64,000 bases of DNA from an uncultured virus (IMG/VR IMGVR_UViG_3300042564_000716) (Duplodnaviria; Heunggongvirae; Uroviricota; Caudoviricetes): IMG/VR virus record IMGVR_UViG_3300042564_000716; one strand, written 5' to 3'. Positions 34,297 through 49,323 of the stretch are shown here, piece by piece (the stretch's first letter is position 1; every line of letters starts with the position of its first letter). The position numbers and the translations under genes are program-made. The notes beneath the pieces are model-generated. The model was not told where the DNA came from, searched no databases, and saw only the letters and a list, made by a program, of their open reading frames with translations.

Positions 34297-36807
34297 TTAG
34301 TTCTCCGGCGGTTCAGCAGCCGGTCTATTTGCAAGTTCCATCAGCTTGGTCTGCATCTTTATAGATGCCTCCCGCTGCTTCTGGGCCATTTTTTGATCGA
34401 ACTCCTGCTGGCGCTGCGCCATCTCCTGCTCGTGCACTTGACGCTCTATGGCCAACTCTTGCTGCGCTCTGGCGGCGGCAATGTCTGGGTCTTCGCCTTG
34501 GCGGTTCGCAGCTTCCTGAACCTTGAGCTGCAGCTCCTGACCCTTGAGGGCCAACTCGCCCTGCACTTTTTGCTCTTTGATTGCGGAATCTTTCATCTTG
34601 ATCTGCAGCTCTTGCTGCTGCATCTGCACGATCGGGTCTTGCGCCTGCTGCTGGGCTTGCTGCTGAGCGGCTTCGCCTTGATGAATCTGCGTGAGCTGCT
34701 TCGCTGCTTGCGCGACCAGCTTGGCCAACTGAACCTCGACCTGCTCGGGCAGCTCTGCGTTGGGTGCAGGCAGCGACGCGCCAAGGCGCTCTTCGATCTG
34801 GTTGCGGTACTGGAACGCGACGTGCTCCGCAACGTGCGCCATGACGGCGGCTTGCATCTGCTGCGCCATGGGGTTCTGCCCCATCTGTCCCATGACCATC
34901 GGGTCCTGCGTCATGGACATGTGCACCGCAATGTGGGCGTCGTGGTCTTGGTAGATGAACGCCTTGGTGGGCTTGCCAGTCAAGAACGCCATGTTCTCGC
35001 TGACCGGATCGCGCGGCTTCATGTCTTCGTCGATCGGCACCAGCTTGTCAGCGTTCTTGATCCCCAGCACTTCCAGCATCTGGCGGTGCAACTGCGGCAA
35101 GTCGTAAATCTGCGGCGCGCCTTGAGCCAACTGAATCGCGGCTTGGTACTGCATGATCCGCTGGGCCATGGTCGAGCTGTTGGGGTCCGACACGGGGATA
35201 ACCTCCACCATGTCGTAGTCTTCCCGCTTGGCCTTGGGGTTGCCGCCGTTGGGCACGTACTCGTAGTCGCCCGGGGTGTTGTCGCGGATGATGGCCTTGA
35301 GGAGCTTGAACTCCTCTTTCATCGAGTAGTGCACACGAGCCTGCACGGCCGACATCGTTTTGAGCTGGCGCTCAAGGATGGCCAGTGTGGTACCCACGGG
35401 CGCGTTGGCGCTCATGTCGCTGACCTTCATGTCGGCCACAGAGCCGAGGCGGCGGGCTTCGTCCGTGATCTGCGCAAGCAGCGCCATCAGAACTTGGCTT
35501 GGCTCTTTGTATGGCAGGGGCATGATGCTGTCGCGCACCGTGCCGCTGGTCACGTCTACGTCGCGGAACTCGCCGGGTGCGATCGGAGTGTCGTCGCCCT
35601 TGATCCGCAGACCGCGCGACTTCAAGCCGCCGGGCAAGTTGGACAGCGTGCCAGCATCTACCAACTGGCGGATGATGGAGGTACCTGCGCGCGCGTAGCC
35701 CCCGATGATGTGGATCAGGCCGAGACCATACACCCCGAAGCCGGGCACGTAGGTGTACTGCACGAAGTGCTGGCGCTTAAGTTTGAGCTTGTCGTCCTCG
35801 TTCCAGTTACGGCGGATGGCCAGCACTTTGGTCGTGCTGCGGTCGATCGTGATGACGTACGGCAGTGCGATGCCGTCCTCGTCTTCGTAGCCGGGCAGGT
35901 CGTAGTCAACGCACATCTCGAGCAACTGATACCGGTTGTCGTCACTGAGGGTAAACCCTTGGTCTTCTGCTTTGCGCTTCTCGATATCAGAGTGAAACGT
36001 AAGGGGGTCCCCCAAGTCGACGTCCTTGTAAAAGCCCGCGACCTGCAGCTTCTTGACGTCGTTTTTGGTTTTACGCATGACGTGGGTCACACGCTCTGCG
36101 GTGCGCGCGCTGGACGCGCCGTACGGAATGATGATGTCTTCGGCCGGGATAAACACTGCGGCCTGCCGCCCCAAGCTGGGGTCGAAATACACCTTCTTGA
36201 ACGCGGCACCGGCCAGCCCCAAGTTGTACAACATGCGCTCGTGCTCAGGGCGGTACTCCGGCATTTCTTCCGTGAGCTTGAAGTTCATGTCGGTGCGCAC
36301 GCGCTCGGCAGCTTCTTCCTTCAACTTATCTATGGCCCCGATGATTTCCGTCTTGACGGGCCCCTGTGATGGGAACGTCTCGATGATCGTCTCAGATTGA
36401 AACCTGATGGCCGCTTCGGTCAACACCGTGGAGTACACCCCGCACGCGCCAGTCCAAGGCTCGGTGCGCTCTTCATACTTCATGCCCAGAACTTCGAGGC
36501 CCTTGACGTACATGTCCGCCCACTCTTTGCGGGACGCAATGTCAGAGTCGTACTCTCCCAGCAGGTCACTGGCCAGTGTGCCCAGCTCCCCGTCGTCCAT
36601 GAACTCGGCCAAGTTGGCATCGAAGTCCTCGTCCGTTTCGTCCTCCGGCATCAAGTCGATGGTCAGGCCGTCGACGCCAATCTGCACGCCCTCGGGGTCC
36701 TCAATCATGATCTCTATGTCCGGGGTGTCGTCTGGGGTAATGCCTGAGAGCGCGTCCAAACCCAACGGGGCCGGAGTGAGCGAAGAGGTCATGCTGTTTG
36801 CTGCCAT
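34297..36807 (-). CDS. Portal protein
   Basis: 836 aa directly after terminase; FKKVYFD, GVYGLGL, RQLVDAGTL; Gln-rich C-terminal coil. Confidence 0.9.
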   Translation of the reverse strand: MAANSMTSSLTPAPLGLDALSGITPDDTPDIEIMIEDPEGVQIGVDGLTIDLMPEDETDEDFDANLAEFMDDGELGTLASDLLGEYDSDIASRKEWADMYVKGLEVLGMKYEERTEPWTGACGVYSTVLTEAAIRFQSETIIETFPSQGPVKTEIIGAIDKLKEEAAERVRTDMNFKLTEEMPEYRPEHERMLYNLGLAGAAFKKVYFDPSLGRQAAVFIPAEDIIIPYGASSARTAERVTHVMRKTKNDVKKLQVAGFYKDVDLGDPLTFHSDIEKRKAEDQGFTLSDDNRYQLLEMCVDYDLPGYEDEDGIALPYVITIDRSTTKVLAIRRNWNEDDKLKLKRQHFVQYTYVPGFGVYGLGLIHIIGGYARAGTSIIRQLVDAGTLSNLPGGLKSRGLRIKGDDTPIAPGEFRDVDVTSGTVRDSIMPLPYKEPSQVLMALLAQITDEARRLGSVADMKVSDMSANAPVGTTLAILERQLKTMSAVQARVHYSMKEEFKLLKAIIRDNTPGDYEYVPNGGNPKAKREDYDMVEVIPVSDPNSSTMAQRIMQYQAAIQLAQGAPQIYDLPQLHRQMLEVLGIKNADKLVPIDEDMKPRDPVSENMAFLTGKPTKAFIYQDHDAHIAVHMSMTQDPMVMGQMGQNPMAQQMQAAVMAHVAEHVAFQYRNQIEERLGASLPAPNAELPEQVEVQLAKLVAQAAKQLTQIHQGEAAQQQAQQQAQDPIVQMQQQELQIKMKDSAIKEQKVQGELALKGQELQLKVQEAANRQGEDPDIAAARAQQELAIERQVHEQEMAQRQQEFDQKMAQKQREASIKMQTKLMELANRPAAEPPEN

Positions 36808-36815
36808 GGTAAATC

Positions 36816-38333
36816 CTAATAATATGCAGCCCGGCGGGCCCGCTGGAAGCCGTCATTATCCTCGTGGTCGGTGCTCAGGCGCAACAGGCCACCTTTTCGC
36901 ACGCGCATCAAGGCCAAAGTCATCGTGTCCACCTCGTCGTCGTGCTCACCGGCCGGGAACGCCAAAATCTCCTCGACGGCCTTGGCCGCCCACGCTGTCT
37001 CGGGGAACCAGACGTGGCCGGAGGCGAACATGTCGGCCACCGCGTTGAGCCGCGCAATCTTGTCTTGGCCCTTGCCCGGGCTGAAGTCCTGCACAAATAT
37101 GCCCGACCTTCGCATCTCGTCGATCAGCGGCTGGCCGCTGGCCTTGGCTTCCACAATCACGGAGTCCGGCTGCCAGTCCGCGTACTGCTCGTGGGCCATC
37201 GCCTTGAGCTCTGGGAACTCGTACTTGCCCTTGACAGAGTTGAGCAGGATGACGTTCTGGGTGTTGTCGACCTCGTTGAACCACACGCCCCACGTATGGC
37301 ACACCGAATAGTCCGAGCGCTGCTTGGTCGTGAGCGCCGTGTCGAACGCCTGCACAAGAAACTCGCACTCTGGCGGCTCGTCGCCGGTCCACCACTTGAT
37401 CCAGTCACGCTTGATGATCGCAGCTTCGGCAGCGGTGGGGTTTTGCTGGTACTGGGCATACCACTGCCACATGATGTGGTGCATCGACGCCCGGGTTTGT
37501 TGCAGGGATTCGATCGTCCACTGCTCTGGCCAGATGGATTTCTCGTTCTCGGTGCCTTCGTTCAGGATGGCCGGGAACTCAAACGCTTCGTAGTTGTCTC
37601 CGCCCTCATTCATGGCAGAGTCTTTGAGCAGTCGACCGATCAGGTCCCGCTGGTGCCAGCGCGTGTGGAGCACGCAAATCTTCCCATCCGGCATCAGACG
37701 CGTTCGCAGACCAGCGCTGAACCACTCGTAGGCGTTATCCAGTGAGTTGGTGTTTCCTGCCTTGATGTCCTGCTCAGACAGCGGGTCGTCGGCAATGATG
37801 AGGTGTGCACCCCGTCCGGCCAGCGCGCCGCCCACACCGATCGCAAAATACTCGCCCCCGTCAGTGGTGTTCCACTGGGCAGCGGCCTTGGCGTCCGAGG
37901 CAATCTTGGTTTTGGGGAAAATGCGCGCGTACTCGGCCGACTGGATCAGGTTACGCACCTTGCGCGCCATGACGATCGCCAAATCTGCAGTGTGTGATGC
38001 CACAATCACCTTGTGGTCCGGGTGACGGCCGAGGTACCACGCCGGGTAGTAGATCGAGATCATCTGGGACTTGCCCATACGCGGTGCCATAGACACGGCA
38101 ATCCGGTTTTTGATGTTCTGCTCAACGTCCATGAGGAGGTGGCCCAGCCGTTTGAGGTGGATGCCGAACTTGTAGGTCTTGTCGATGGCCGCAATGAACG
38201 CCAAGAAGTCGTCTTGGGCTGCAGCGATCGTTTTGCGCTCCTCCAACTCGTCAAACATGGCCAAAAGCTCGGCAGCCTCCTCCCGGGGCATGTTCTTGAC
38301 CAGCTTTTCGATGATTTGGGGCGTCAATTCCAT
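36816..38333 (-). CDS. terL: Terminase large subunit
   Basis: Walker A MAPRMGKS, LIIADDP, TRWH..DL, AFDTA, EAKASG, HDDEVD. Confidence 0.95.
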   Translation of the reverse strand: MELTPQIIEKLVKNMPREEAAELLAMFDELEERKTIAAAQDDFLAFIAAIDKTYKFGIHLKRLGHLLMDVEQNIKNRIAVSMAPRMGKSQMISIYYPAWYLGRHPDHKVIVASHTADLAIVMARKVRNLIQSAEYARIFPKTKIASDAKAAAQWNTTDGGEYFAIGVGGALAGRGAHLIIADDPLSEQDIKAGNTNSLDNAYEWFSAGLRTRLMPDGKICVLHTRWHQRDLIGRLLKDSAMNEGGDNYEAFEFPAILNEGTENEKSIWPEQWTIESLQQTRASMHHIMWQWYAQYQQNPTAAEAAIIKRDWIKWWTGDEPPECEFLVQAFDTALTTKQRSDYSVCHTWGVWFNEVDNTQNVILLNSVKGKYEFPELKAMAHEQYADWQPDSVIVEAKASGQPLIDEMRRSGIFVQDFSPGKGQDKIARLNAVADMFASGHVWFPETAWAAKAVEEILAFPAGEHDDEVDTMTLALMRVRKGGLLRLSTDHEDNDGFQRARRAAYY

Positions 38334-38336: not shown

Positions 38337-38900
38337 TTACTTGGCGTCCACGTCGTCTACGGAGATTTCTGGCATGTGGGAGGTGCCATTTGGCACCACT
38401 TCCCCCTCAATGACACGCGTCAAGCGCTCGCGCAGCAGTTGTTCCAGCTCTTCGGTCGGCCGGTGGCGCATGGTGATCTCGGTTTTGTCCGTGAACAGCC
38501 CCACGTCTGAGATTTTGCCCAGCAATTCCAGCGATTTCATGCGGATGCGGGGGTCTGGGTTGGCCGTCTCGGCAATCAACTTGTTGGTGACGTAGGTTCT
38601 GATCTGGGATGCGGACTTGACCACCACCTTGTCGTACTCGTTGAGCAGGGACTGCAGGTATACAACCGTTTGTGGAGAGGATAGGTCCTCGTCGGAGGCC
38701 AACTTATTGCCTGCAAAGATGTCGCGGGCGTTGTCTTTGTCGAATTCCGTGATTTCGGACGGGTCTGGCAGGCTGTCGGTGTCCACGATTGCAGCCATGG
38801 CTGCAGCCACTCGGGTCTCCAGTGACTCAAAAGTCGGCGCGTAGTCCGCGATCGGGATGTCGTAGTCGATGGTGGTTTGATACATGGGAGGGAATCGCAC
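38337..38900 (-). CDS. Probable terminase small subunit (start may be at 38885)
   Basis: Directly upstream of terL; RMKSLELLGK..DVGLF. Confidence 0.7.
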   Translation of the reverse strand: MRFPPMYQTTIDYDIPIADYAPTFESLETRVAAAMAAIVDTDSLPDPSEITEFDKDNARDIFAGNKLASDEDLSSPQTVVYLQSLLNEYDKVVVKSASQIRTYVTNKLIAETANPDPRIRMKSLELLGKISDVGLFTDKTEITMRHRPTEELEQLLRERLTRVIEGEVVPNGTSHMPEISVDDVDAK

Positions 38901-39133
38901 TCCGGGTTGTTGGGCAAATTGTATAGTGAAATTTTTGGAATGGCTTTTATTTTTGCATGGGGGGTGTTTCCTGTGGGGGGATTTAGTTATGTATAGGTTG
39001 GATTTTGAGAGGTGGTGGCGGATACGCCACTCAGCGTAAAGGCACGCGCGGAGTCCCAGTTCACAGCGCGGGGGGCCGGGTACGGGTGGGTCGCGGCGGC
39101 TGGACTTTTAAGGTTAGAACATAGGTATAGGGG

Positions 39134-39162
39134 TTGACAATTAGCTATGGTTGAGTTACATT
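39134..39162 (+). promoter_or_regulatory. Early sigma70 promoter TTGACA-17-TACATT
   Basis: Consensus match upstream of the first plus-strand gene; followed by the hairpin TCTGAATC-AATTCC-GATTCAGA. Confidence 0.75.
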
Positions 39163-39209
39163 AAAGGCTCTGAATCAATTCCGATTCAGACAACCAAAAG
39201 GTAAATCAA

Positions 39210-39743
39210 ATGTCAGTAATCAATCAATCCCTCATTTCCGCTGTCATCAAGTCATTCGAAGGCGAAGCCAAGGCTATTGCCAAGGCGCGCACCTCACAGG
39301 ATCAAGCCATTCAAGCAACCCTTGACGCTATGCTGATTGCTTGTGACCAACCCAAGCCCCTTTTCATGAAGGGCAATGCTAAGACCAACGAAGCGCGCGG
39401 GCAGATCAAAGCCATGTTCGATGCCATTTGCGAAAAGGGTTTTATCTCCAAGTCATCGGCAGCATCTTATCAATCAGCGTTTTGGATTGCTTTTGAACAG
39501 GGCATTCCCTTTCAGCGTGACTTGAACAACAACAAAGCGAAGCCTGACACCACTGGCACAAGCGAAGCGAAGCCCACGACATCCGGCAAAGTGGAGACAA
39601 CCGACATCCCCGCGCTTCACAAAACCTTGTCAAAAGCATTGGCACAAGCCCGGATTTTGAATCAGTCAATTTTTGCGGCTGATTTGGTTGACCTGATCGT
39701 TGACACATGGCCTGACTTTAAAGAGACAGTGTTGGCGAAGTAA
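39210..39743 (+). CDS. First early gene, hypothetical helical protein
   Basis: 177 aa, AAGG ribosome-binding site, follows the promoter. Confidence 0.8.
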   Translation: MSVINQSLISAVIKSFEGEAKAIAKARTSQDQAIQATLDAMLIACDQPKPLFMKGNAKTNEARGQIKAMFDAICEKGFISKSSAASYQSAFWIAFEQGIPFQRDLNNNKAKPDTTGTSEAKPTTSGKVETTDIPALHKTLSKALAQARILNQSIFAADLVDLIVDTWPDFKETVLAK

Positions 39744-39793
39744 TCAACCCGGCCCGGCCTAGGCCGGGCCTTTAATCTTAAAGGAACAACCAA

Positions 39794-40030
39794 ATGAATG
39801 AATTGTATTTTCAACATGCTTTGGATTGCGGAATCAACATGACAGGCAAAACCACTTTGCCAATTGAAAACTCTGACGGCCGGTTGCTTATGTGCGATAT
39901 CATTGACCCTGAATCAAGGGATGTTGTTATCCATTCGGGCACGACATTGGACATTCAGCTTATCGAAATCTGCCAGTCCTATGGTGTCGATTACGCTATT
40001 GTATACAAGGGACGCCACACACCCGCTTAA
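39794..40030 (+). CDS. Early protein resembling the RNAP beta/beta' BBM2 module
   Basis: GRLLMCDIIDPESRDVVIHSGTTLDIQLIEICQSYGVDYAIV; AAGGA ribosome-binding site. Confidence 0.6.
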   Translation: MNELYFQHALDCGINMTGKTTLPIENSDGRLLMCDIIDPESRDVVIHSGTTLDIQLIEICQSYGVDYAIVYKGRHTPA

Positions 40031-40050
40031 CCCCTACTGGCTAACCCTAG

Positions 40051-40075
40051 GCCCGCCACCCGGCGGGCTTTTTTT
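40051..40075 (+). terminator. Rho-independent terminator
   Basis: GCCCGCC-ACCC-GGCGGGC-TTTTTTT. Confidence 0.85.
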
Positions 40076-40706
40076 CGTCTGGACTTTTCTGGCCCCGCCG
40101 CCGCGCGGGGCGCGTCATAGTAGTCGGACCGTGGGGGAGAGCGAGAGGGCGAGTGCGTGCAGCGGCAGGCGAGGGCGAGGGAGGGCGCAACGGCTCGGCG
40201 AAAGTTTTAAGCTTAAAGCTATTGGTAGTATCGCTACAATGCACAAAACAGGCGTCGCGTGTTACAAAACGCCTGTGCATCAAAGTAAAGATAATACTAA
40301 GCCTATTTTGTAATACTGCAGGTCTCAAAAACAGCAGAGAAGAGAGAGAGATAGAGATATATTATTTATTTATTGTATGTGTGTTACGGGCGTACAGACT
40401 TTTAATCATACCAATCCTTGGGAAGCTTTGGTCGTTTGCTCTTGGCATGTGGACGAAATTTTAAGCTTAAAAGTTTTGGGGGGCCCGGGCAGGCTGGTAG
40501 GGTTTCAAAACCCCGTTGCAACGTACACACATAGCAAGAGCTAAAACCACGTCACTCCGCAAATGGTGATTTCAGGGGGCTCCCAGCCGTTAGTATGTCC
40601 CCACTCGGCCTTTGTAACATAAAACGCACTTTCTGTGCGGCTGTAACGTACACACCACCACTAGATATGTGATATCATCCACACCTCACCAACCCCGAGG
40701 ACTACT

Positions 40707-41567
40707 ATGACTCCAGACACCAACCCCATGCGGCCCATCACCTTCAGCATCCCCCATGCCGTAGCCATCAAAATATCCGAATGGCACGAAGGCCCACTCG
40801 AAGATGCAGCACTCACCGCCCTGCGGCTCTACCACGGCATTGGCCCCACCGCGCACGCTGAACTCCTGCAGGCTGCCCAGATTCTTGGCATCAGCCAACT
40901 CAAAGCCATGCGAACTGCGATCGACATGTTCGTCGAACAGACCAGCAAGCTCAAGACCACCCCCCACCCCAAGGGCCGACCCGTCACCAACCAAGAGCGC
41001 GACACTGCCATATTCCTGCGCGTCACCGAAGGGGCAACCCAAGCAGCGGTGGCACACACGTTCAACATATCCATTGTGCGAGTCGGGCAGATCATGGCCC
41101 AGCAACGCGCACTGCGCGGACTCACATCCAACCGCAAACCCCGCACACCCAACCAAGGTCAACCACACACGAGCGCCCAACCGCAACCACAAACCCCAGA
41201 CATCGGCACACTCTTTGAGGCACTGGACTCCGGCATGACCCGCCTCACTGCAGCCACCACATACAACCTGACCATTGAGCAGGTCGAACGCGCCTATGCC
41301 GCGTACAAGGCAGACCTACCACTGAACCCAACCAAGGGAGACAAGGCATCTGCCACGTTCGCAGGCATCCATGCGACGGAAGAAGTTTTAACCTTAAAAC
41401 ATACCAACGGTATGGAAACGCCCGCACCACCCCCACGCAGGCTTGCAGTCATCCCACCATCCATGCGAGCCAAACCCGAAACCCTGCCGCCTCTCCCTGC
41501 AGACTCCACACCGGGCCAGTCTGCGGTGGACTTGATGAACAGCTTCCAACTGAGCGACCAACTATGA
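40707..41567 (+). CDS. Multi-HTH DNA-binding protein
   Basis: GATQAAVAHTFNISIVRVGQI and GMTRLTAATTYNLTIEQVERAY HTH-like segments. Confidence 0.7.
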   Translation: MTPDTNPMRPITFSIPHAVAIKISEWHEGPLEDAALTALRLYHGIGPTAHAELLQAAQILGISQLKAMRTAIDMFVEQTSKLKTTPHPKGRPVTNQERDTAIFLRVTEGATQAAVAHTFNISIVRVGQIMAQQRALRGLTSNRKPRTPNQGQPHTSAQPQPQTPDIGTLFEALDSGMTRLTAATTYNLTIEQVERAYAAYKADLPLNPTKGDKASATFAGIHATEEVLTLKHTNGMETPAPPPRRLAVIPPSMRAKPETLPPLPADSTPGQSAVDLMNSFQLSDQL

Positions 41568-41812
41568 CAACACCCATGCACACCCTTGAGCTCGAACTAT
41601 CGCTCGACGTGGCCGATGAACTCGCTGCCAAGGCTGGCAGTCTTGATGCGGCCGTGATCCAAGCTCTGCAGGACTATCTGCAGACGGAACCCAAACACAG
41701 GGCCACACGGGACAGGGCAGTCAAGCACCTCGTGACGAACGGCAAACCCATCGAGGAGGCTGCTGCAATCTTTGGCCTGACGCCGAAAGCCGTGAAAATC
41801 ATCGTGGAGTAG
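41564..41812 (+). CDS. Small DNA-binding protein (RHH-like plus HTH)
   Basis: C-terminal GKPIEEAAAIFGLTPKAVKII. Confidence 0.65.
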   Translation: MTTPMHTLELELSLDVADELAAKAGSLDAAVIQALQDYLQTEPKHRATRDRAVKHLVTNGKPIEEAAAIFGLTPKAVKIIVE

Positions 41813-41858
41813 CCAATCAGGGGGGCCAAAACGCCCCCCTACACATAGCAAATAACAC

Positions 41859-41887
41859 TTGACTTATGAGCTCTTTTGTGTTACAAT
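41859..41887 (+). promoter_or_regulatory. Strong sigma70 promoter TTGACT-17-TACAAT with extended -10
   Basis: Near-consensus elements with an AT-rich upstream tract. Confidence 0.8.
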
Positions 41888-41895
41888 ATGAGTCT

Positions 41896-41963
41896 GAGTG
41901 GGAAATCGTGCCCAACTCGCGGCCAGCCTTACATATCTGCGGCCCTGTTCCTTAACAACTTAT
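41896..41963 (+). promoter_or_regulatory. boxB-like hairpin plus boxA-like antitermination element
   Basis: GAGTGGG...CCCAACTC hairpin, then TGTTCCTTAACAACTTA, close to rrn boxA TGCTCTTTAACAATTTA. Confidence 0.55.
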
Positions 41964-42000
41964 ATACCGTTAGGATTAACCAAGACTTTTAAGGTTAAAA

Positions 42001-42512
42001 GTTCTTGGCTCCGATCAAGCCGCCGCTGCAATTGCAGAAATCGTTTAGTAGGAATTGCGCTGACAACAAGAAGGACATGGGACGAGCGTCGTGTAGGTAG
42101 ATTGACAGTCAATTAAACGACTGCATCTTATGCCAACCCACACAGCACGCAACGCCCAGCACACCCATAAGCAGACATGAGATCACTTCCCTCGATGAAT
42201 AGGCGTCCCGTGTAGCCGGGTCATGTGTGTGGAGTACCCCGATAGGCCAGAGTCAGCCGGGGGAAAGCATCATGCAATGCATATGCATACTACTTAAATG
42301 AGGGCGCTCCTCTCCGAGAAATCGTGACGAGCGCTAGGAAGCTGGAGACCTGTGACATGACAACCAGCATCTGGGATGTGGAACCGGCAAGCCGGGCTAA
42401 GCCACACCGACAACCTCTATCGTAGTCCAAGGACACCTCGCAAGAGGTGGCATCCTGAAGGGCATGGAGACTGACCTCCGTGTCCTTTGTGATGTGGCAA
42501 TTCCGCCATATC
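42001..42512 (+). ncRNA. Candidate large structured non-coding RNA
   Basis: No credible ORF; many stems including a GCAA tetraloop hairpin; bounded by two palindromic sites. Confidence 0.55.
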
Positions 42513-42530
42513 TTTTAAGGTTAAAAGATC

Positions 42531-42815
42531 ATGACTACCTTTGAATGGACTACCTCATCGCGGGGCTTCGCCAACTATATCTATCACGAGACCACAGAAG
42601 AACTGTCGCGCTCAGTAGGTATTGCAGGGATACACCACATACCAACCAAGAACTACTACCAAGTCAGCCTCAGCTATATGCTCAACGAGCTTGTGCCATC
42701 CAAGGCGTACATTTTCAAGCACAAGTTCCCAACGCTTGAAGCTGCCAAACGTGCAGTCGAGCGCAAAGTCCCGCCCCTCGTGGCTGTACTCAAGATGCAA
42801 GGAATAACCATATGA
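42531..42815 (+). CDS. Small early protein (TLEAAK family)
   Basis: ATG directly after a palindrome. Confidence 0.75.
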   Translation: MTTFEWTTSSRGFANYIYHETTEELSRSVGIAGIHHIPTKNYYQVSLSYMLNELVPSKAYIFKHKFPTLEAAKRAVERKVPPLVAVLKMQGITI

Positions 42816-43063
42816 AAACCACATGGCACAACGCCCCGGGCAGCAAGCAGCACTGGCTGTACAAGGGCTCATCAATCGGAGCATCGGGCGTCGTCGGGAT
42901 GATCTACGAGGTCAACCCCACTGCGTTCACTGTGTACAAAGAATACCCACAACAGACATGGGACATCGCTCGCCGCGAGTTCATCACGCAAGTCGAGACC
43001 TTGGAGGAAGCCCAAGGCTTGCTCCTCACCGTAGTCAACAGCCGCATGGAAGGTACATCATGA
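42812..43063 (+). CDS. Small early protein (TLEEAQ family)
   Basis: ATGA overlap with the previous gene. Confidence 0.75.
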   Translation: MKTTWHNAPGSKQHWLYKGSSIGASGVVGMIYEVNPTAFTVYKEYPQQTWDIARREFITQVETLEEAQGLLLTVVNSRMEGTS

Positions 43064-43185
43064 AGAAGTACAAAGGGCCAGCCAAGCCCATACCCACAAC
43101 CCGCGAGATCATTACCGACAAAGCCGAGCGTGTGATCTTCCTGCTGTTTGCCGTATTCATGGCCGTGTACCTGTTGGTGGAGTGA
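43060..43185 (+). CDS. 41-aa protein with a C-terminal TM helix
   Basis: MKKYKGPAK...VIFLLFAVFMAVYLLVE; ATGA overlap. Confidence 0.6.
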   Translation: MKKYKGPAKPIPTTREIITDKAERVIFLLFAVFMAVYLLVE

Positions 43186-43188
43186 GCC

Positions 43189-43476
43189 ATGAACATAGCC
43201 GACACCGTGATCTGGTGTGACCTAGCGCGCCGGGAGTTCGATGACCACATCCAGTGGGTGCCGAGCTGGTTGATAAGCCGAGATGATGTTCACCACTGGC
43301 GGTACAGCGTGCACCGATACCCATTCGTGCAGGGCTACCACCTCGTGCACTACCCCGGCGACGACGCAGATGACGACGACGATGTTGTCATCAGCACACA
43401 CAAGACACTGGCCGAGGCCATGTCCATCCTCAAACTCCTGCTGGCCAACGGCGGGGTTGTTTACTTCGACAACTAA
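43189..43476 (+). CDS. Small early protein (TLAEAM family)
   Basis: GGAG ribosome-binding site; acidic DDADDDDD run. Confidence 0.7.
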   Translation: MNIADTVIWCDLARREFDDHIQWVPSWLISRDDVHHWRYSVHRYPFVQGYHLVHYPGDDADDDDDVVISTHKTLAEAMSILKLLLANGGVVYFDN

Positions 43477-43494
43477 CTTTTAAGGTTAAAAGAA

Positions 43495-43707
43495 ATGACT
43501 GAACCCATCTGCCCCTCGTGCTACATCGAGGACATACCCCTGCCGCGCTACGCGCTCGGGTATCGCACATGCCTCACATGCGGTGAGAAGCAAGCCAAGA
43601 AGGTCAAGCACACCATCGCACCCATGCCCAAGAGTAACTACATGCTGTTCACAGACCTGTCGCTGCTCAAGGGACTTAACTCATCACACAAGGGAGGTTC
43701 GCTATGA
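43495..43707 (+). CDS. C4 Zn-finger protein, DksA/TraR-finger-like
   Basis: CPSC..EDIP..R...G..TCLTC. Confidence 0.65.
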   Translation: MTEPICPSCYIEDIPLPRYALGYRTCLTCGEKQAKKVKHTIAPMPKSNYMLFTDLSLLKGLNSSHKGGSL

Positions 43708-43910
43708 GATTAGAACACGGCTCGTTTATTCTTTTACAAGACGGCAAGGTCAATGTCTATGCATCCGACTACAACACCATCGTGGACCGACTCAACGCGC
43801 AGTATGCAAAGAATCCCGCCAGCGACTTCATCATCACGCAAGTGGTGGGCACAGTGGACAAACCCAAGGTGCCTGTCGTGCACTGCGTATACAACGCACA
43901 AAACCTTTAA
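43704..43910 (+). CDS. Small hypothetical protein
   Basis: GGAGG ribosome-binding site; the stop lies inside a palindrome. Confidence 0.7.
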   Translation: MRLEHGSFILLQDGKVNVYASDYNTIVDRLNAQYAKNPASDFIITQVVGTVDKPKVPVVHCVYNAQNL

Positions 43911-43929
43911 CCTTAAAAGAAAGCACATC

Positions 43930-44664
43930 ATGAACGCACACACCAAACTCACAATGCACCTGTCACGTCACGCATACAAGCGTGGCCAATTCAAAGGCGA
44001 CGCCCCTGCCGACTGCGGGCGCAGGGCTAAGACACACTTCCGTGTCATCAAGGGCAACGGCGGGACGATGCTGGTGCGTATGCACAACGCTGACCTCATC
44101 ACTGCCTACGAGGACGGGCGCATCAAACTGCACACCAACGGCTGGCACACATCACGCACAACCCGGGACTGCATGGGAGAGGCACTGACAAACTTCTTTG
44201 GGTGGGGGTATCTCCACAGCGTGCGTATGGGTGGCTACTCACAGACCGGCATCAAGATGAACGGCAAGACGTATCGCTACTATGACGGGATGGAATTCAG
44301 CGCCGACGGCGCACCACTCACATCGCTCAAGGTGTTCACAGCCAGACGCGCAGACCGTGAGGAAACCGCTGAGTTCCGCAAAGAAATCAAAGAGTCTGGG
44401 TTCGTTGGCATGTTCCCTATTCTGTACAACGCAGCCGGGGTTGCTGAAAACAGTTGGTTGTTACGCACTAAAGAAAAGATCACCGATGCAGACTCTGCCG
44501 ATTCATGGCCCGAGATTGTGTCGATATACAAATACCCAAGATACACCCACCGCATGAAGCTTATCCCTGCATACCCCGATCACAAAGCTGCACTGCGAGC
44601 AATCGTTGCAAGCTTCACCAAGAACATGACTAAGTTCGTCGATACCGACGTGACCGTCCTGTAA
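43930..44664 (+). CDS. Hypothetical protein (start MNAHTKL)
   Basis: IKLHTNGW.T.TTR...YRYYDGMEF; follows a palindrome. Confidence 0.75.
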   Translation: MNAHTKLTMHLSRHAYKRGQFKGDAPADCGRRAKTHFRVIKGNGGTMLVRMHNADLITAYEDGRIKLHTNGWHTSRTTRDCMGEALTNFFGWGYLHSVRMGGYSQTGIKMNGKTYRYYDGMEFSADGAPLTSLKVFTARRADREETAEFRKEIKESGFVGMFPILYNAAGVAENSWLLRTKEKITDADSADSWPEIVSIYKYPRYTHRMKLIPAYPDHKAALRAIVASFTKNMTKFVDTDVTVL

Positions 44665-44735
44665 GCCGAGCGCAAGCTCATTGTTTTAACCTTAAAACTT
44701 CTCTCAACTCTTTCACTTCAATCTAGGAAATCATC

Positions 44736-45797
44736 ATGAACGTCAATCTCAAGCAAGCCGCCACCCTCATCCGTAACGTGGGCTCCTCCAACACGCTCCT
44801 CCTGCGGGGCCAGCCCGGTATCGGCAAGTCCTCTATCCTGCAGACACTCGAACGTGACCTGCCTGACTATCAGGTGTGCTACATCGACGTGGCCAACCTC
44901 GACCTCGGTGACCTCGGCATGCCAGTCATCGACAAGGACACCATGACAACCAGCTACGCACCCAACGTGCGCTTCGGTGTGGGTAAGGGTCAGACACGCC
45001 CTGTCGTGCTCATGCTCGACGAGCTGGGCAAGGCGTCCCGCCCTGTGCTCAACATGCTGCTGCCTGTCATCCTCGAACATCGCATCGGTGATGTAGCTCT
45101 GCCTACTGGCTCTATTGTGTTCGGCACAACCAACCTCGACACTGACGGCGTGGGTGACAACATCCCTGCCCATGCGTTCAACCGCATGACTGTCGTGACT
45201 GTGGCTAACCCTACGGCCGACGAGTGGATCGAGTGGGCCTCATCGCACAGCGTAGCGCCCGAGATCATGGCGTTCGCCAAGCAGTATCCGCAGGTGTTCG
45301 ACTGCTATGCAGACCTCGACAAGAAGGACAAGAACCCCTACATCTTCAACCCCATGACGGGTAACATTCGGGCATTCTGCTCACCTCGCTCGCTGGCCAA
45401 GGCATCGAACCTCATCAAGCAGCGCAACGTGCTCGGCTCTGCCCTGCTGCCAGCCCTCGCAGGTACTGTCGGTGAAGCTGCGGCCCGTGACATGGAAGCC
45501 CTTGTGAATCTGGCCGATCAACTGCCGCTGTTCGAGACCATCGTGAAGCAACCACTCAAGGCCAAGGTGCCCGATGGTGCTGGTGCACTGTTCATCCTTG
45601 CATTCATGCTGGCGGGCCGAGTGGACGCTGACACCCTCGACCCTGTGATGGACTACGCCGAGCGCATGGCAGACGCATCGTTCGAGGCACACGCCCTGTT
45701 TATCACAGCGCTGGCATCCAACCGCACCAAGGTCGGTATGGCATGCAAGAACCGCAAGTTCACCGCAGCAGCCGCCAAGCTGGGCAAATACTTTTAA
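44736..45797 (+). CDS. MoxR-like AAA+ ATPase
   Basis: Walker A GQPGIGKS, Walker B LMLDE, sensor N, NR, SPRS. Confidence 0.9.
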   Translation: MNVNLKQAATLIRNVGSSNTLLLRGQPGIGKSSILQTLERDLPDYQVCYIDVANLDLGDLGMPVIDKDTMTTSYAPNVRFGVGKGQTRPVVLMLDELGKASRPVLNMLLPVILEHRIGDVALPTGSIVFGTTNLDTDGVGDNIPAHAFNRMTVVTVANPTADEWIEWASSHSVAPEIMAFAKQYPQVFDCYADLDKKDKNPYIFNPMTGNIRAFCSPRSLAKASNLIKQRNVLGSALLPALAGTVGEAAARDMEALVNLADQLPLFETIVKQPLKAKVPDGAGALFILAFMLAGRVDADTLDPVMDYAERMADASFEAHALFITALASNRTKVGMACKNRKFTAAAAKLGKYF

Positions 45798-45813
45798 GGT
45801 TAAAGGAATCACC

Positions 45814-46008
45814 ATGCTAATCATCGAATCAACCAGCAACGGCCAGCACATGGTCAAGATCAAGAAGGACTGGCACCCCGGCAGGATGGGGTCTCAGTAC
45901 ACACCGCCTCTGCGTAACTACGTGAGTGGGGACAGTGCCGAGCGCGTGCAGCGGGCACTGCTCAAGAAACCCGTGGCCTATCTCACCCCGTGGTGGGTGG
46001 GCAAGTAA
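45814..46008 (+). CDS. Small hypothetical protein
   Basis: Bounded by palindromes on both sides. Confidence 0.7.
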   Translation: MLIIESTSNGQHMVKIKKDWHPGRMGSQYTPPLRNYVSGDSAERVQRALLKKPVAYLTPWWVGK

Positions 46009-46611
46009 CTTTTAACCTTAAAACAATTGGAGAGAATCATGAGTGAGAACGCTTTCGATATGGTGCGCAAAATACGCCACCTTCCCGGCTTGAAACTGAC
46101 GGCAGTTATTGAGCCTCAACGCATCACCAAGCGCGTGAAGAACGCCGCGCAGAAGATGCTACGTACTGGTGTTCTAGCGAACGGGTACACCAGCAAGTCT
46201 CGTATGTTGGCTGAGCAGTTGTTAAGTGCCGCTGGCCTACAAGCCTCTGCAACCAACACAAAGTGGGGGGTTCGTATCTTTGATGCTGGCCAACTCACCG
46301 AGGATGATCGCGCGCAGATCGTAGAGTTTATCCAAGCTGCGCGGATGATCGAGCTGGCCAGTACGACCAGTAATAACTCGTACGTACACGACCGGTACAC
46401 AAGCCTAGTGAACCAGTTCAATAGACAGAGTGGCGGGCAGTTCGCGTTCAACATGTATCAGCCAGAACTGCAAGCACAGCTTACTGAGCTGGTGGCCGCA
46501 CGTCGCACCCCCGAGCAGGTCAAGGCACACGAGGCACTGGCCGACAGGCTCGACAGTACTGAACCCATCCACATCAACTTTTAACCTTAAAACAATTGGA
46601 GAGAATCATGA
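46007..46611 (+). repeat. 36-bp perfect direct repeat (46007-46042 and 46576-46611)
   Basis: AACTTTTAACCTTAAAACAATTGGAGAGAATCATGA occurs twice. Confidence 0.95.
46039..46584 (+). CDS. Hypothetical protein flanked by the direct repeat
   Basis: ATG lies in repeat 1 and the stop in repeat 2. Confidence 0.8.
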   Translation: MSENAFDMVRKIRHLPGLKLTAVIEPQRITKRVKNAAQKMLRTGVLANGYTSKSRMLAEQLLSAAGLQASATNTKWGVRIFDAGQLTEDDRAQIVEFIQAARMIELASTTSNNSYVHDRYTSLVNQFNRQSGGQFAFNMYQPELQAQLTELVAARRTPEQVKAHEALADRLDSTEPIHINF

Positions 46612-47810
46612 ACGTACAAGATCGCATCAAGCGAGCACACATCAGCATCATGCAGCACAAGAAGTTCTGTGCTTACTCAGGCGTGCTGGCCTGTGGCAAG
46701 GTCACTGTGGGGGACGGTGTACCCACGGCGGCGACCGATGGCTGGAACGTCATCTACAACCCCAAGTTCGTCGAGGAGCATGCCAAGACTGACCCCGAGC
46801 TGCGCTTCCTCGTACTGCATGAGGCAACGCACAAAGCCTATCGGCACATGGTCACATGGCGTGCACTGCACGAAGAAAACCCACGGCTTGCCAACATCGC
46901 GGCCGACTACTTCGTCAACCTGAACCTGCAGGACACAGACGATGGTGAGGGCTTCGTCCAGATGCTCAAGATCGGCGTACCGCCCGAGGCCAAGTATCGC
47001 GGCTGGTCTGTGCAGATGATCTTCGCCGACCTCAAGAAACAGCAACAACAGCAGGAAGACGGCAGCGGTGGGGGTGGCGGCGACAACCCAGATGACCCCG
47101 ATGACGGCGCAGGGTTCGACGAGCATGATTGGGACGGCAACCCAACCAACGGCGACCCTGCCAAAGAGCAAGAGCAAGCCAACGAGATTCAACGCGCCAT
47201 TCGCCAAGGTGAAATCCTGCGCAAGAAGCTGGCGGGTAAGGGTGCTGGTCAGTCCGATGGTGTGTTCGGTGACCTCATGACGCCCAAGATCGACTGGAAG
47301 AAAGTGCTGCGGGAGTTCATCACCGAGACCTGCGCGGGGCGTGACGAGTCCTCATGGCGCAAGCCCAACAGGCGCTACCTCGGCATGGACATCTACATGC
47401 CCTCTATGGTCGGCACCACTATGACGGAGCTGGTAATCGGCTTCGACACATCGGGCTCGATCTTTGGCGGCGACGAGATGACGCGCTTCGTGTCTGAGAT
47501 TAAGACCATCGTTGAGGACGTCAAGCCAAGCAAGGTGCATGTGATCTATTGGGACACCGAGGTGGCAGGACATCAGACGTTCGAGGATGGTCAGTTCGCT
47601 GTGCAAGACCTGCGCATCAAGGGCGGTGGCGGCACGGACGGTTCGGTGTTGTTTGACTACCTGCGAGACAAGAACATCAACCCTCAAGCCATTGTGCAGT
47701 TCACCGATGGCTATGTCGGTAGCTGGGGCCGCACTGATGTGCCCACACTGTGGGCTGTGACATCTGATCTGCAAGCTCCGTTTGGCACGACGATTCGTGT
47801 CGAGGTCTGA
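46608..47810 (+). CDS. Metallopeptidase-like (HExxH) plus vWA domain protein, DUF2201-like
   Basis: TAATDG, LHEATH, NIAADY.VN, MIDAS DTSGS, GGGGTD, FTDGY. Confidence 0.88.
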   Translation: MNVQDRIKRAHISIMQHKKFCAYSGVLACGKVTVGDGVPTAATDGWNVIYNPKFVEEHAKTDPELRFLVLHEATHKAYRHMVTWRALHEENPRLANIAADYFVNLNLQDTDDGEGFVQMLKIGVPPEAKYRGWSVQMIFADLKKQQQQQEDGSGGGGGDNPDDPDDGAGFDEHDWDGNPTNGDPAKEQEQANEIQRAIRQGEILRKKLAGKGAGQSDGVFGDLMTPKIDWKKVLREFITETCAGRDESSWRKPNRRYLGMDIYMPSMVGTTMTELVIGFDTSGSIFGGDEMTRFVSEIKTIVEDVKPSKVHVIYWDTEVAGHQTFEDGQFAVQDLRIKGGGGTDGSVLFDYLRDKNINPQAIVQFTDGYVGSWGRTDVPTLWAVTSDLQAPFGTTIRVEV

Positions 47811-47836
47811 AACTTTTAAGGTTAAAGGAATTCATC

Positions 47837-48235
47837 ATGGGATACAGATCAAATTTAATGGTGCTCATCTACCCCGATATACAAAACCCCAGCGAGGAGC
47901 AGCCGCTGTACGACCAGCTCAAGGTGCTGATGGCTACGACGTTCAAAGATGTGTCCGAGGAGTTTGGTGGGTACATGACGTGGATCGACGCCGACCATGT
48001 GCTGAAGTTCACGCTCGACGATGTGAAGTGGTATCCGAGTTATGGGGATGTGCAGATGTTCGAGAATATGCTGGAGGCGTTCAAGGGCAGCGGCGATGAC
48101 GACGAGGACATCAAGGGTTACTGCACAGAGTTCGTACGTGTTGGTGAGGACACTGATGACGTGGAGGAAGTGCACACCGGGCACAACAACCACTACTACC
48201 TGCAGGTGCGCAGGACTATCGAAAGTAACGTATGA
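47837..48235 (+). CDS. Acidic hypothetical protein
   Basis: MGYRS...DVKWY...FVRVGEDTDDVE. Confidence 0.75.
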   Translation: MGYRSNLMVLIYPDIQNPSEEQPLYDQLKVLMATTFKDVSEEFGGYMTWIDADHVLKFTLDDVKWYPSYGDVQMFENMLEAFKGSGDDDEDIKGYCTEFVRVGEDTDDVEEVHTGHNNHYYLQVRRTIESNV

Positions 48236-48537
48236 CCATCGACGACTTCGAGTGGGTTGAAGAAGGGTTTGACAGCTACGCCCTCGCCCACAAGACACGC
48301 GAGATGACCATCGCTGTCATCAAAAACTTCAACGGGTGGTACATACATGCGCTGAAAGTCCCGACGGGTGTTGCGAAGATCGCTGAGCACCTCGACAACT
48401 TCGAAGCGGCGAAAGTCATCGCCACAATTTACGTTAGCCAAAACATGGAGAACTTTCCTGATGTCAAAAATTACCGCACAAGAGCTCTCAGAGCAGGACC
48501 CCAAAAGATTCCGCGAGGAGTATTTAAAGTGGACTGA
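48232..48537 (+). CDS. Small early protein (FEAAK family)
   Basis: ATGA overlap with the previous gene. Confidence 0.6.
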   Translation: MTIDDFEWVEEGFDSYALAHKTREMTIAVIKNFNGWYIHALKVPTGVAKIAEHLDNFEAAKVIATIYVSQNMENFPDVKNYRTRALRAGPQKIPRGVFKVD

Positions 48538-49069
48538 GTACGCCTGTGACCACGAATGGTGGGACTACATGGAGGAGACCTTCAAGAGCGACATGTCCCT
48601 CAAGGGTGTCTCCGTCACGCACATCTACTTCAGCGTGTCGTACAGCCAGAGCGACTACGCATCGTTCGAGGGGAGTATCAGCGTGGACGAGTGGATGGCG
48701 TACAAGGGCTACGACGAAACGTACCCGGCCCTGTATCTGGCGGCTGTGGACTACTGCGAGTTTGCCAGTGTGTCCGACCGTAGCCGAGGTAGCTGGCCGC
48801 GAGTGAACCTAGAGGGCGGTACTGTAGGCAACACACCCCCTACGGGTATCTTTGCTGGGCTTGATACCGAGGCATGGGATGAGTTGATCGAGGAGCAGTA
48901 CAGCTCTGCAGGGCTTGAAGATGAGATGCAGTCGTTTGTCGAAGACGAGTGCCGCAAGCTGTACCGTGACTTGCGTGATGAGTACGAGCACCTGACGAGT
49001 GAGGAATCGTTTATCGAGTCGTGCGAATGCAACGACGTAACTTTTGAAACTGAGGAGTGTGAAGCATGA
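48461..49069 (+). CDS. Very acidic protein (start MSKITAQ)
   Basis: Asp/Glu-rich throughout; YFSVSYSQSDYASFEG...LYRDLRDEYEHLTSEE. Confidence 0.75.
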   Translation: MSKITAQELSEQDPKRFREEYLKWTEYACDHEWWDYMEETFKSDMSLKGVSVTHIYFSVSYSQSDYASFEGSISVDEWMAYKGYDETYPALYLAAVDYCEFASVSDRSRGSWPRVNLEGGTVGNTPPTGIFAGLDTEAWDELIEEQYSSAGLEDEMQSFVEDECRKLYRDLRDEYEHLTSEESFIESCECNDVTFETEECEA

Positions 49070-49323
49070 GATATCAAGTAACTGTCAGCGGCAAAACTAT
49101 CTTGTTAACCCAGCACCAACTGGAAATTCTGATGACCGCAGTGCAAGACGCAGAGCAGATCGGAGAGCAACACGTAGGCAACGGCAAGGGGTCGCAGGGC
49201 TATCAAAAAGCCTACGTACCCACTATTGAGACCAAGCAACCACACGAATGGCTGTCAGTGTTTGTCGTTGCTGACGACTTCGTTGATGCCACCAAACTGG
49301 CAATGAAACTTACCACCGAATAA
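49066..49323 (+). CDS. Small hypothetical protein
   Basis: GAGGAG upstream and ATGA overlap. Confidence 0.7.
   Translation: MRYQVTVSGKTILLTQHQLEILMTAVQDAEQIGEQHVGNGKGSQGYQKAYVPTIETKQPHEWLSVFVVADDFVDATKLAMKLTTE

What the first reader, a model, noticed from the sequence alone, without database searches (positions are those of the whole stretch)
42001..42512. Candidate ~510-nt structured ncRNA occupying its own palindrome-bounded cassette
Seen: a gene-sized gap with no credible ORF in an otherwise tightly packed genome, lying just downstream of a near-consensus promoter and bounded exactly by palindromes at 41987 and 42513. It is dense in complementary segments: TGCAG..TCGTTTA (42033-47) with TAAACGA-CTGCA (42114-25); CCACACA (42138-44) with TGTGTGG (42226-32); ACATGA with TCATGT; GGGACG (~42079) with CGTCCC (~42204), a crossing pseudoknot-type pair; CCCCG with CGGGG (42237-62); GCGCTC with GAGCGC (42304-34); GCTGG with CCAGC; CACCTC-GCAA-GAGGTG (GNRA loop, 42434-49); AAGGGCATGGAG with CTCCGTGTCCTT (G-U pairs); GATGTGGC-AATTCC-GCCATATC. 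G-U pairs and the GNRA loop favour a plus-strand RNA. I do not recognise it as tRNA, tmRNA, RNase P or an intron. Inference: an abundant early phage RNA of unknown class (decoy, anti-defence sponge, scaffold or ribozyme).
Basis: partly seen in the sequence, partly recalled or inferred. Interest (0 to 1): 0.85.

Follow-up and report, generated by a model that had tools for sequence, protein, structure and literature searches.

The report
Folded phage early RNA with boxA
The gene-free stretch is a real, intricately folded, untranslated RNA of about 600 bases that a group of uncultured lake-water phages place behind a strong host-type promoter and a ribosomal-RNA-style anti-termination signal at the head of their early genes; it matches no catalogued RNA family and its job is unknown.

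Summary
Window 42001-42512 has no conserved ORF, follows a near-consensus sigma70 promoter (41859-41887) and lies between two copies of CTTTTAAGGTTAAAAG.

Homologues occur in 42 full-length copies (37 distinct) from IMG/VR and JGI contigs. An RNAalifold model of 110 pairs is 88.9% paired, against 35-39% when partners are slid. In the best-aligned domain (42287-42429), 21 of 23 pairs show compensatory changes (0 of 500 shuffles as good).

The RNA starts about 108 nt upstream of the flagged stretch, near 41893. Its leader has two hairpins and then a boxA element (41947-41957), laid out as in bacterial rRNA-operon leaders.

It is not a free cassette. A same-strand gene follows directly, with no convincing terminator.

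Rfam 15 gives no hit for the window or for 12 homologous loci.

Best reading: an rRNA-operon-like unit, with Nus/boxA-assisted synthesis of a large folded RNA at the head of the early operon. Whether the core acts in trans or in cis is open.

The scan found the same family earlier on other DNA (e1-5358313). I reached boxA before looking that up.

The parts
41820..41840 (+). G+C-rich hairpin GGGGGGCC-AAAA-CGCCCCCC ending the upstream unit (no U tract)
   Evidence: Sequence. Kept in L003 and, with changes on both arms, in L004. Picked up only as a spurious hairpin match.
41859..41887 (+). Sigma70-type promoter TTGACT-17-TACAAT with TG extension; the start site is inferred near 41893-41896
   Evidence: 10 of 12 consensus positions, one of only two such sites in 38500-55000. 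The hexamers are conserved and the spacer diverged in relatives.
41896..41918 (+). Leader hairpin H1
   Evidence: 86.4% of cells paired, 25 compensatory cells, against 36-58% when partners are slid.
41921..41944 (+). Leader hairpin H2, directly upstream of boxA (the position of boxB)
   Evidence: 76.1% paired, 36 compensatory cells. Alignment with the E. coli rrn leader.
41947..41957 (+). boxA-like element GTTCCTTAACA (one mismatch to GYTCTTTAANA)
   Evidence: One search gives the site in the window; 21 of 37 family members match the consensus perfectly, 16 of 37 with one mismatch, and C at position 4 is present in 37 of 37, always at the same place. tie the motif to the E. coli rrn leader and to the published consensus.
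41980..42008 (+). Internal hairpin built on the phage's own palindrome (core 41986-42001); its position is conserved in the family and its sequence is phage-specific
   Evidence: I4; 89.1% paired, 27 compensatory cells; the same palindrome recurs 3-16 times in 17 of 19 loci.
42009..42507 (+). Core of the structured RNA: domain 1 (42021-42205, holding a lineage-specific insertion at about 42047-42187), domain 2 (42207-42288), domain 3 (42289-42426) and 3' hairpins
   Evidence: fold constrained by 99 family-supported pairs.
42287..42429 (+). Junction domain: two nested closing helices (ACUAC/GUAGU, then a GGGU/ACCC-type helix) around two hairpin arms; the best-conserved part
   Evidence: Alignment A5. 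RNAalifold gives 23 pairs, 21 with compensatory changes; 92.7% paired against 33-46% slid, 0 of 500 shuffles as good. Model R1 hits this place at 106.4 bits, the only copy in the window.
42434..42449 (+). Hairpin CACCUC-GCAA-GAGGUG inside the outer AGGA/UCCU stem
   Evidence: the outer stem is 95% paired; the inner stem covaries (CACCUC/GAGGUG against CACCCA/UGGGUG).
42450..42495 (+). Terminal long hairpin with an internal loop (CAUC..AAGGGCAUGGAG/CUCCGUGUCCUU..GAUG); a possible processing site or weak terminator
   Evidence: 11 pairs, 99.6% paired, 7 with compensatory changes. It was not called as a terminator.
42512..42527 (+). Second copy of the palindrome, 4 nt before the start codon of the next gene
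42531..42815 (+). First downstream gene (94 aa, no family hit); absent from the close relative L003/L011

Best explanation
Window about 41893 to about 42507 (+) is a non-coding, highly folded RNA at the 5' end of the phage's main early transcription unit.

Shown:
- It is conserved in a clade of uncultured freshwater phages.
- It has no conserved ORF.
- It folds into at least 15 helices kept by compensatory changes.
- It is always preceded by a strong sigma70-type promoter and followed by same-strand genes.
- Its first ~65 nt hold two hairpins and then a boxA element, laid out as in bacterial rRNA-operon leaders.

Inferred:
- Host RNA polymerase starts at 41859-41887.
- The nascent boxA recruits NusB/S10 and the other Nus factors, as at rrn operons. 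This makes the polymerase Rho-resistant over about 600 untranslated nt and into the early genes, and helps the long-range helices form.
- The next element is a hairpin carrying the phage's own intercistronic palindrome, presumably recognised by the same phage-specific factor that acts at the gene starts.
- The ~500-nt core, with invariant junction nucleotides and expansion-segment-like insertions, is a functional RNA module. I think it is most likely a stable RNA released from, or persisting at, the head of the early transcript, and that it binds a specific protein or complex soon after the DNA enters, without needing translation.

In short, it is a 'mini rRNA operon' for a phage RNA.

The confidence of 0.5 is for the whole statement, including the released, partner-binding core. 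The shown part alone I hold at about 0.9.
For: Family:
- nhmmer finds 42 full-length copies, 37 distinct.
- All come from IMG/VR and JGI contigs fetched.

Structure:
- 110 RNAalifold pairs are 88.9% paired, against 35.0-39.2% when partners are slid.
- There are 511 compensatory cells, against 75-106 when slid.
- Junction domain: 21 of 23 pairs carry compensatory changes. Covariation score is 0.524, against at most 0.084 slid, with 0 of 500 shuffles as high.
- 3' hairpins: 90.3% paired, with 0 of 500 shuffles as high on four of five measures and 1 of 500 on pair types.
- Long-range helix CCGYCG/RCGG: 32 of 32 paired, with C-G in 22 and U-A in 10.

Strand: 362 G-U cells against 125 A-C cells, and the promoter orientation.

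Non-coding: ORFs are short and inconsistent in place and strand.

boxA:
- 21 of 37 members match GYTCTTTAANA perfectly and 16 of 37 with one mismatch, at a fixed position.
- Against the 13-nt rrn form (TGCTCTTTAACAA), 24 of 37 members have at most 2 mismatches, a level reached in only 0.09% of shuffled sequences.
- A relative's leader aligns to the E. coli leader 120 nt upstream of a 16S gene.
- The rrnB boxA and the consensus come from passages of PMC2176067 and of 10.1101/091223.
- The abstracts of PMC4807359 and PMC6614801 describe the rrn complex as Rho-resistant and as aiding rRNA folding.

Operon head:
- A same-strand ORF follows in 37 of 37.
- The first downstream gene differs between relatives.
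- Only two 10-of-12 promoters lie in 38500-55000.

No known family.
Against: - There is no direct evidence of transcription, of the RNA's ends or of its stability. The metatranscriptome contigs of relatives cover parts of the RNA and also the flanking genes, and contigs cannot rank expression.
- The window's own boxA has one mismatch (T5 to C). As a lone motif it is not above chance in the window: 4 matches against 3.9 expected. Its weight comes only from positional conservation in the family.
- No convincing terminator or known processing site separates the RNA from the downstream genes, so release as a free RNA is an inference.
- T7 also has a perfect boxA in its early leader without any known large functional RNA, so boxA alone does not imply a stable RNA product.
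- The single-sequence folding z-score is only -2.62.
- The structure was derived from these same sequences, which favours it in the slid-partner control.
- Two predicted helices (41947-50/42431-34 and 41951-56/41969-74) have almost no covariation and should be disregarded.
Confidence: 0.5

Rival explanations
1. It is purely a cis-acting early-operon leader. The boxA part gives processive antitermination. The folded core acts only on its own transcript, as a 5' stabiliser, a polymerase-modifying (put-like) element, or a sensor that sets read-through at the terminal hairpin. No free RNA is made.
For: - It is always directly upstream of same-strand genes (37 of 37).
- No terminator-like site was called after it, and no other strong promoter for the roughly 12 kb downstream.
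- T7 has boxA in a plain early leader.
- The terminal hairpin is followed by a short U-containing run (UUUGUGAU), so it could be a weak, regulated terminator.
- In the window subgroup, 42063-42080 can pair with the 3' strand of that hairpin, which would give an alternative structure (I2).
Against: - The known cis antitermination RNAs are, as I recall, 60-120 nt. Nothing known needs about 500 nt with invariant junction nucleotides and fixed insertion sites.
- The first downstream gene is not conserved, so a gene-specific regulator is unlikely.
- The alternative pairing exists only in members carrying the insertion.
Confidence: 0.35
2. It is a DNA-level element (replication origin, packaging site or array of protein-binding sites) rather than an RNA.
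For: - It lies in the early region near the switch between the two gene blocks.
- It contains the phage-specific palindrome that recurs through the early region.
Against: - Compensatory changes keep Watson-Crick and G-U pairs between distant segments.
- The G-U excess is strand-specific: 362 G-U cells against 125 A-C cells.
- No repeat arrays were found beyond the palindromes.
- The promoter and boxA point to transcription.
Confidence: 0.04
3. It is a decayed or unconventional protein-coding gene, or a cluster of small ORFs.
For: A 72-aa GTG ORF (41898-42116) exists in the window, and similarly placed ORFs exist in a few relatives.
Against: - An 8-nt insertion in the closest relative shifts that frame.
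- The longest ORFs differ in position and strand among the 37 members.
- Indels are not multiples of three.
- The substitutions follow pairing, not codons.
Confidence: 0.02

Closest known systems
Leader of bacterial rRNA operons (boxB hairpin, boxA, boxC; rrn antitermination complex of NusA/B/E/G, SuhB and S4)
   Same: Both have a strong sigma70 promoter, a hairpin directly upstream of boxA, and a boxA matching GYTCTTTAANA. In several relatives the TTTATCAG spacer and a GU-rich stretch follow, as in E. coli. A long, highly folded, untranslated RNA with long-range helices comes next.
   Different: The folded RNA has no detectable likeness to rRNA (no Rfam hit). It is followed by protein genes. 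No flanking processing stem between the 5' and 3' ends was found. Nus binding is untested.
Phage T7 early control region (host promoters A1-A3, boxA, then gene 0.3)
   Same: Both have host-type promoters at the head of the early operon, a boxA in the untranslated leader (a perfect GCTCTTTAACA at T7 813-823, between A3 at 750 and gene 0.3 at 925), and hairpins between the early cistrons. That T7 has RNase III sites between its early genes is recalled, not tested here.
   Different: From the nearest host promoter, A3, the T7 leader is much shorter (about 175 nt), and it is not known to hold a large conserved fold. The intercistronic hairpins here are short (6-10 bp), A+T-rich palindromes that are phage-specific in sequence, unlike RNase III substrates.
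GOLLD and ROOL: large ornate RNAs often carried by phages (bioRxiv 10.1101/2024.12.08.627333; abstract seen)
   Same: Similar size range (450-700 nt). Many covarying helices. Conserved junction nucleotides. Found in phages and lake-water data. Function unknown.
   Different: No match to their Rfam models. This RNA sits behind a boxA leader at the head of an operon. No evidence for or against multimer formation.
Lambda nut and HK022 put antitermination RNAs (recalled, not tested)
   Same: An RNA element at the start of phage early operons that changes the elongating host polymerase. Lambda nut contains boxA.
   Different: Those are under 100 nt. No N-like protein or put-like twin hairpin was identified here. 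The core here is about five times larger.

Membership tests
rrn-type boxA antitermination leader | boxA sequence matching GYTCTTTAANA, with C at position 4 | tested here: met
   Window 41947-41957 is GTTCCTTAACA, 10 of 11. In the family, 21 of 37 match perfectly, 16 of 37 have one mismatch, and C4 is present in 37 of 37. The consensus comes from passages of 10.1101/091223.
rrn-type boxA antitermination leader | boxA lies in the transcribed leader shortly after a host promoter, with a hairpin (boxB) before it and a G/U-rich boxC after it | tested here: inconclusive
   The position about 55 nt after the inferred start, and hairpin H2 directly upstream, are conserved. The GU-rich stretch is clear in many relatives but weak in the window (GTTAGGATTAACC). 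The start site is inferred.
rrn-type boxA antitermination leader | Binds NusB/S10 and confers resistance to Rho | not testable with these tools
   Needs binding and read-through assays.
Any Rfam 15 family (including GOLLD, ROOL, HEARO, RNase P, group I/II introns, 6S, riboswitches) | Covariance-model score at or near the family's gathering threshold | tested here: not met
   No hits at gathering score in the window or in 10 homologous loci. At E up to 10, only trivial short matches appear in the window, L027 and L033.
tRNA / tmRNA | ARAGORN detection | tested here: not met
   0 genes in the whole window.
Free-standing sRNA or ncRNA gene | Own promoter and own intrinsic terminator | tested here: not met
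   The promoter is present. No terminator-like site was called between 42450 and 42531. A gene follows directly in 37 of 37 members.
Protein-coding gene | ORF conserved in frame and position among relatives | tested here: not met

The most novel reading that the evidence does not exclude
Phages of this clade carry a 'pseudo-rRNA operon'. They use the host's rRNA-synthesis and rRNA-folding machinery (strong promoter plus boxA/Nus complex) to make, as their very first product, a new class of large ornate RNA that works in trans, for example as a decoy or inhibitor of a host defence or of part of the host expression machinery, or as a self-assembling scaffold. Earlier notes of this scan report boxA followed by large, unrelated folded RNAs in several other phage groups. 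If those hold, this would be a general and so far undescribed phage strategy.
Probability: 0.35. Interest if true: 0.88.

Novelty: new variant of a known kind. Interest (0 to 1): 0.72.

Why it matters
Large RNAs with many covarying helices and conserved junctions are rare, and those studied have usually proved to be machines, such as ribozymes, RNPs or self-assembling cages. This one is clearly real, is confined to a phage clade, and is expressed before any phage protein can be made.

It is also coupled to the host's rRNA antitermination signal. That coupling gives a direct experimental handle: boxA mutants, nus mutants and Rho inhibition.

If the core acts in trans, it would be an RNA-only early takeover or anti-defence factor. 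If it acts in cis, it would be by far the largest known leader device on a phage early operon.

The phage-specific palindromes placed just before start codons, one of which is built into the RNA, point to an unknown sequence-specific factor that co-evolves with them.

Tried and rejected
- blastn and megablast of the region, and of 14 kb around it, against 50,697 named phage records: no match.
- The window's own assembly is not held. The nearest record, G001 (a 31.5-kb fragment), has no match.
- Metatranscriptome and cDNA contigs of four runs were laid on 39000-46000. Pieces cover parts of the RNA (41937-42146, 42033-42177, 42242-42506) and also the flanking genes. Contigs cannot rank expression or show ends, so nothing follows for or against transcription.
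- Genome-contig scan with the two-block pattern: one hit, in Psychrobacter immobilis. Model R1 scores it 8.7 bits, so it is a chance match.
- Five metagenome pattern hits (L070, L075, L082, L086, L091) are likewise weak, at 20 bits or less, and were not counted as members.
- Model R1 found no copy in the more distant relatives L037-L060 (ATPase at most 63% identical). Some of those loci hold little upstream DNA, so absence is not proven.
- mafft-qinsi was not usable, so E-INS-i was used instead.
- Supplements of Fremin et al. 2023 (PMC10690425) were searched for a conserved 16-mer and two contig numbers. There were no occurrences in the 6 files searched, and 3 files were not searched. The family may still be among their 10,006 candidates.
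- Literature searches listed no description of this RNA. I saw only listings and abstracts.
- I considered the palindromes as RNase III sites. The stems are too short and the sequences are phage-specific.
- I considered them as hairpin promoters of an N4-type virion polymerase. The centre dinucleotide occurs as GG, CC or GC, so they have no fixed direction, and no polymerase gene was detected. Neither idea was tested further.

Full report
**Setting.** The window is a phage genome.
- Structural genes run on the - strand: terminase 36816-38333, portal 34297-36807, and an ORF of at least 1889 aa at 3-5669 that carries only an LPD38 domain.
- Early and replication genes run on the + strand from about 39100. 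They include an AAA ATPase (44736-45797), a DUF2201 metallopeptidase/VWA protein (46608-47810), DNA polymerase, helicase and primase.
- The ATPase's best named relatives are N4-like phages, at 26-28% identity.
- Near-identical DNA occurs in lake-water metagenomes.

**The observation.**
- 42001-42512 has no + strand ORF over 33 aa.
- TTGACT-17-TACAAT lies at 41859-41887. It is one of only two 10-of-12 promoter matches in 38500-55000.
- CTTTTAAGGTTAAAAG stands at 41986-42001 and at 42512-42527.
- The + strand folds at z = -2.62, with 2 of 100 shuffles as good. The - strand folds at z = -1.03.
- Rfam 15 gives nothing at gathering score in the window, and only trivial matches at E up to 10.
- ARAGORN finds no tRNA or tmRNA.

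**Relatives.**
- One IMG/VR contig is identical to the window here.
- L003 is 87-93% identical across 41560-42534, and the changes are informative. The promoter hexamers are kept while the spacer diverges. Loops change inside kept stems. A-U becomes G-C in the terminal hairpin.
- Anchoring on the ATPase gave 51 IMG/VR loci. One two-block pattern gave 30 metagenome loci.
- nhmmer then found 42 full-length copies, 37 of them distinct. Five near-duplicates (L066, L092, L078, L093, L069) were dropped before the structure counts, leaving 32.
- Sizes run from about 450 to 700 nt. Insertions sit at fixed sites. The window's 42047-42187 insertion is shared only with L011 and L023, and partly with L004.

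**Structure.**
- RNAalifold on 547 consensus columns of the 32 sequences gives 110 pairs.
- Of the cells, 88.9% are standard pairs, against 35.0-39.2% when 3' partners are slid by 1-3 columns. There are 511 compensatory cells, against 75-106.
- Strong helices include:
  - the long-range CCGYCG/RCGG helix (42021-24/42202-05), 32 of 32 paired, with C-G in 22 and U-A in 10;
  - CCC/GGG swapping to GGG/CCC (42207-10/42217-20);
  - 42222-30/42267-74;
  - ACUAC/GUAGU (42289-93/42422-26).
- For the junction domain (42287-42429), the tool's own alignment A5 gives 23 pairs, 21 with compensatory changes. It is 92.7% paired against 32.8-46.0% slid. The covariation score is 0.524 against at most 0.084, with 0 of 500 shuffles as high.
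- The 3' hairpins give 90.3% paired, with 0 of 500 shuffles as high on four of five measures and 1 of 500 on further pair types.
- G-U cells outnumber A-C cells 362 to 125, which fits a + strand RNA.
- Two predicted helices (41947-50/42431-34 and 41951-56/41969-74) have almost no covariation, and I discard them.
- A window fold constrained by 99 family pairs is given.
- No ORF is conserved in place, frame or strand.

**The leader.**
- Conservation starts at about 41893, not at 42001.
- Two covarying hairpins (41896-41918 and 41921-41944) are followed by a motif kept at one position in all members. The window has GTTCCTTAACA at 41947-57.
- Of the 37 members, 21 match GYTCTTTAANA perfectly and 16 match with one mismatch. 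All 37 have C at position 4.
- Against the 13-nt rrn form (TGCTCTTTAACAA), 24 of 37 members have at most 2 mismatches. Shuffled sequences reach that in only 0.09% of cases.
- That consensus is the boxA consensus derived in 10.1101/091223 (passages).
- The leader of relative L033 matches E. coli DNA 120 nt upstream of a 16S gene. That sequence is the one PMC2176067 calls the boxA of rrnB (passages).
- The alignment also shows a shared TTTATCAG spacer and a GU-rich stretch in several relatives.
- In the window alone, the one-mismatch motif is not above chance: 4 matches against 3.9 expected. Its weight is positional conservation.
- By the abstracts of PMC4807359 and PMC6614801, and the introduction passage of 10.1101/091223, boxA-bound Nus factors make RNA polymerase Rho-resistant and aid rRNA folding.
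- Phage T7 has a perfect boxA between promoter A3 and gene 0.3.

**The palindrome.**
- It recurs at 15 sites between 39106 and 50723. In 11 of the 15, it ends 3-12 nt before a start codon.
- In 17 of 19 related loci, the hairpin at the same position inside the RNA has that phage's own palindrome. Examples are TCTAAGGTTAGA, TCTAATATTAGA, GTCTTAAGCTTAAGAC, GTTCTAACCTTAGAAC and GTTATAACGTTATAAC.
- That palindrome recurs 3-16 times in the same locus, against about 0 in shuffles.
- So the 5' 'boundary' is a conserved internal element of the RNA. It shares a phage-specific, co-evolving recognition factor with the gene starts.
- Many relatives have no 3' palindrome.

**Context.**
- A same-strand ORF follows in 37 of 37 members. 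Some of the starts called by the script lie inside the terminal hairpin and are probably spurious.
- The first downstream gene differs between relatives. L003/L011 lack 42531-42815 altogether.
- No terminator-like site was called after the RNA.
- Model R1 finds one copy in the window and none in the distant relatives L037-L060.

**Reading.**
- Shown: a conserved, untranslated, multi-domain RNA with an rrn-style leader at the head of the early operon, in no catalogued family.
- Inferred: a host-polymerase start, Nus loading at boxA, Rho resistance and assisted folding.
- The role of the ~500-nt core is open. I put about 0.5 on a stable RNA that acts as a ligand for a protein or complex, about 0.35 on a purely cis-acting leader, and little on DNA-level or coding readings.

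**Prior notes and print.**
- After reaching boxA, I looked up earlier notes of this scan.
- The same family was reported on another genome with the same reading (e1-5358313). Analogous boxA-plus-folded-RNA leaders were noted in unrelated phages.
- Four literature searches listed no description of this RNA.
- A catalogue of 10,006 viral candidates (PMC10690425) could be checked only in part.

Noticed in passing
window 39106-50723 (15 sites, e.g. 43478, 46010, 49325, 50710): The phage-specific palindrome TTTTAA-SS-TTAAAA sits 3-12 nt before a start codon at 11 of 15 sites and is confined to the early/middle region. Relatives carry a different palindrome at the equivalent places. This points to an unknown sequence-specific factor acting at gene starts or cassette joints.
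   Followed up: partly
window 40031-40706: A second ORF-poor stretch of about 680 nt. It begins with a strong terminator-like hairpin (40049-40070 plus a T run) and holds two palindrome copies (40205, 40459). It may be another non-coding element or the region of the genome ends.
   Followed up: no
window 42531-42815 versus L003:2150: The 94-aa gene right after the RNA is missing from the close relative. The junction falls exactly at the palindrome, as if genes are swapped as cassettes at these sites.
   Followed up: partly
L056:5100-5125: In one relative, a copy of that phage's palindrome (CTTCTAAGGTTAGAAG) sits inside a variable loop of the RNA's second domain, so the palindrome can be gained at new places.
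   Followed up: no
window 42063-42080 and 42478-42495: A segment of the lineage-specific insertion is 78% complementary to the 3' strand of the terminal hairpin and resembles that hairpin's 5' strand. It may be an alternative pairing (a switch) or the trace of a duplication.
   Followed up: no
window 41386-41399 inside ORF 40707-41567: A palindrome copy lies inside the 286-aa ORF, 12 nt before an in-frame ATG. The ORF may really be two genes. Both it and the next 82-aa ORF have weak helix-turn-helix matches below Pfam cut-offs, which makes them candidates for the palindrome-binding factor.
   Followed up: no
window 3-5669 (-): An ORF of at least 1889 aa that runs off the window. It has no PHROG hit and only an LPD38 domain near residue 1776-1888. 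No RNA polymerase gene was recognised anywhere in the window, although the ATPase-VWA pair resembles N4-like phages.
   Followed up: no
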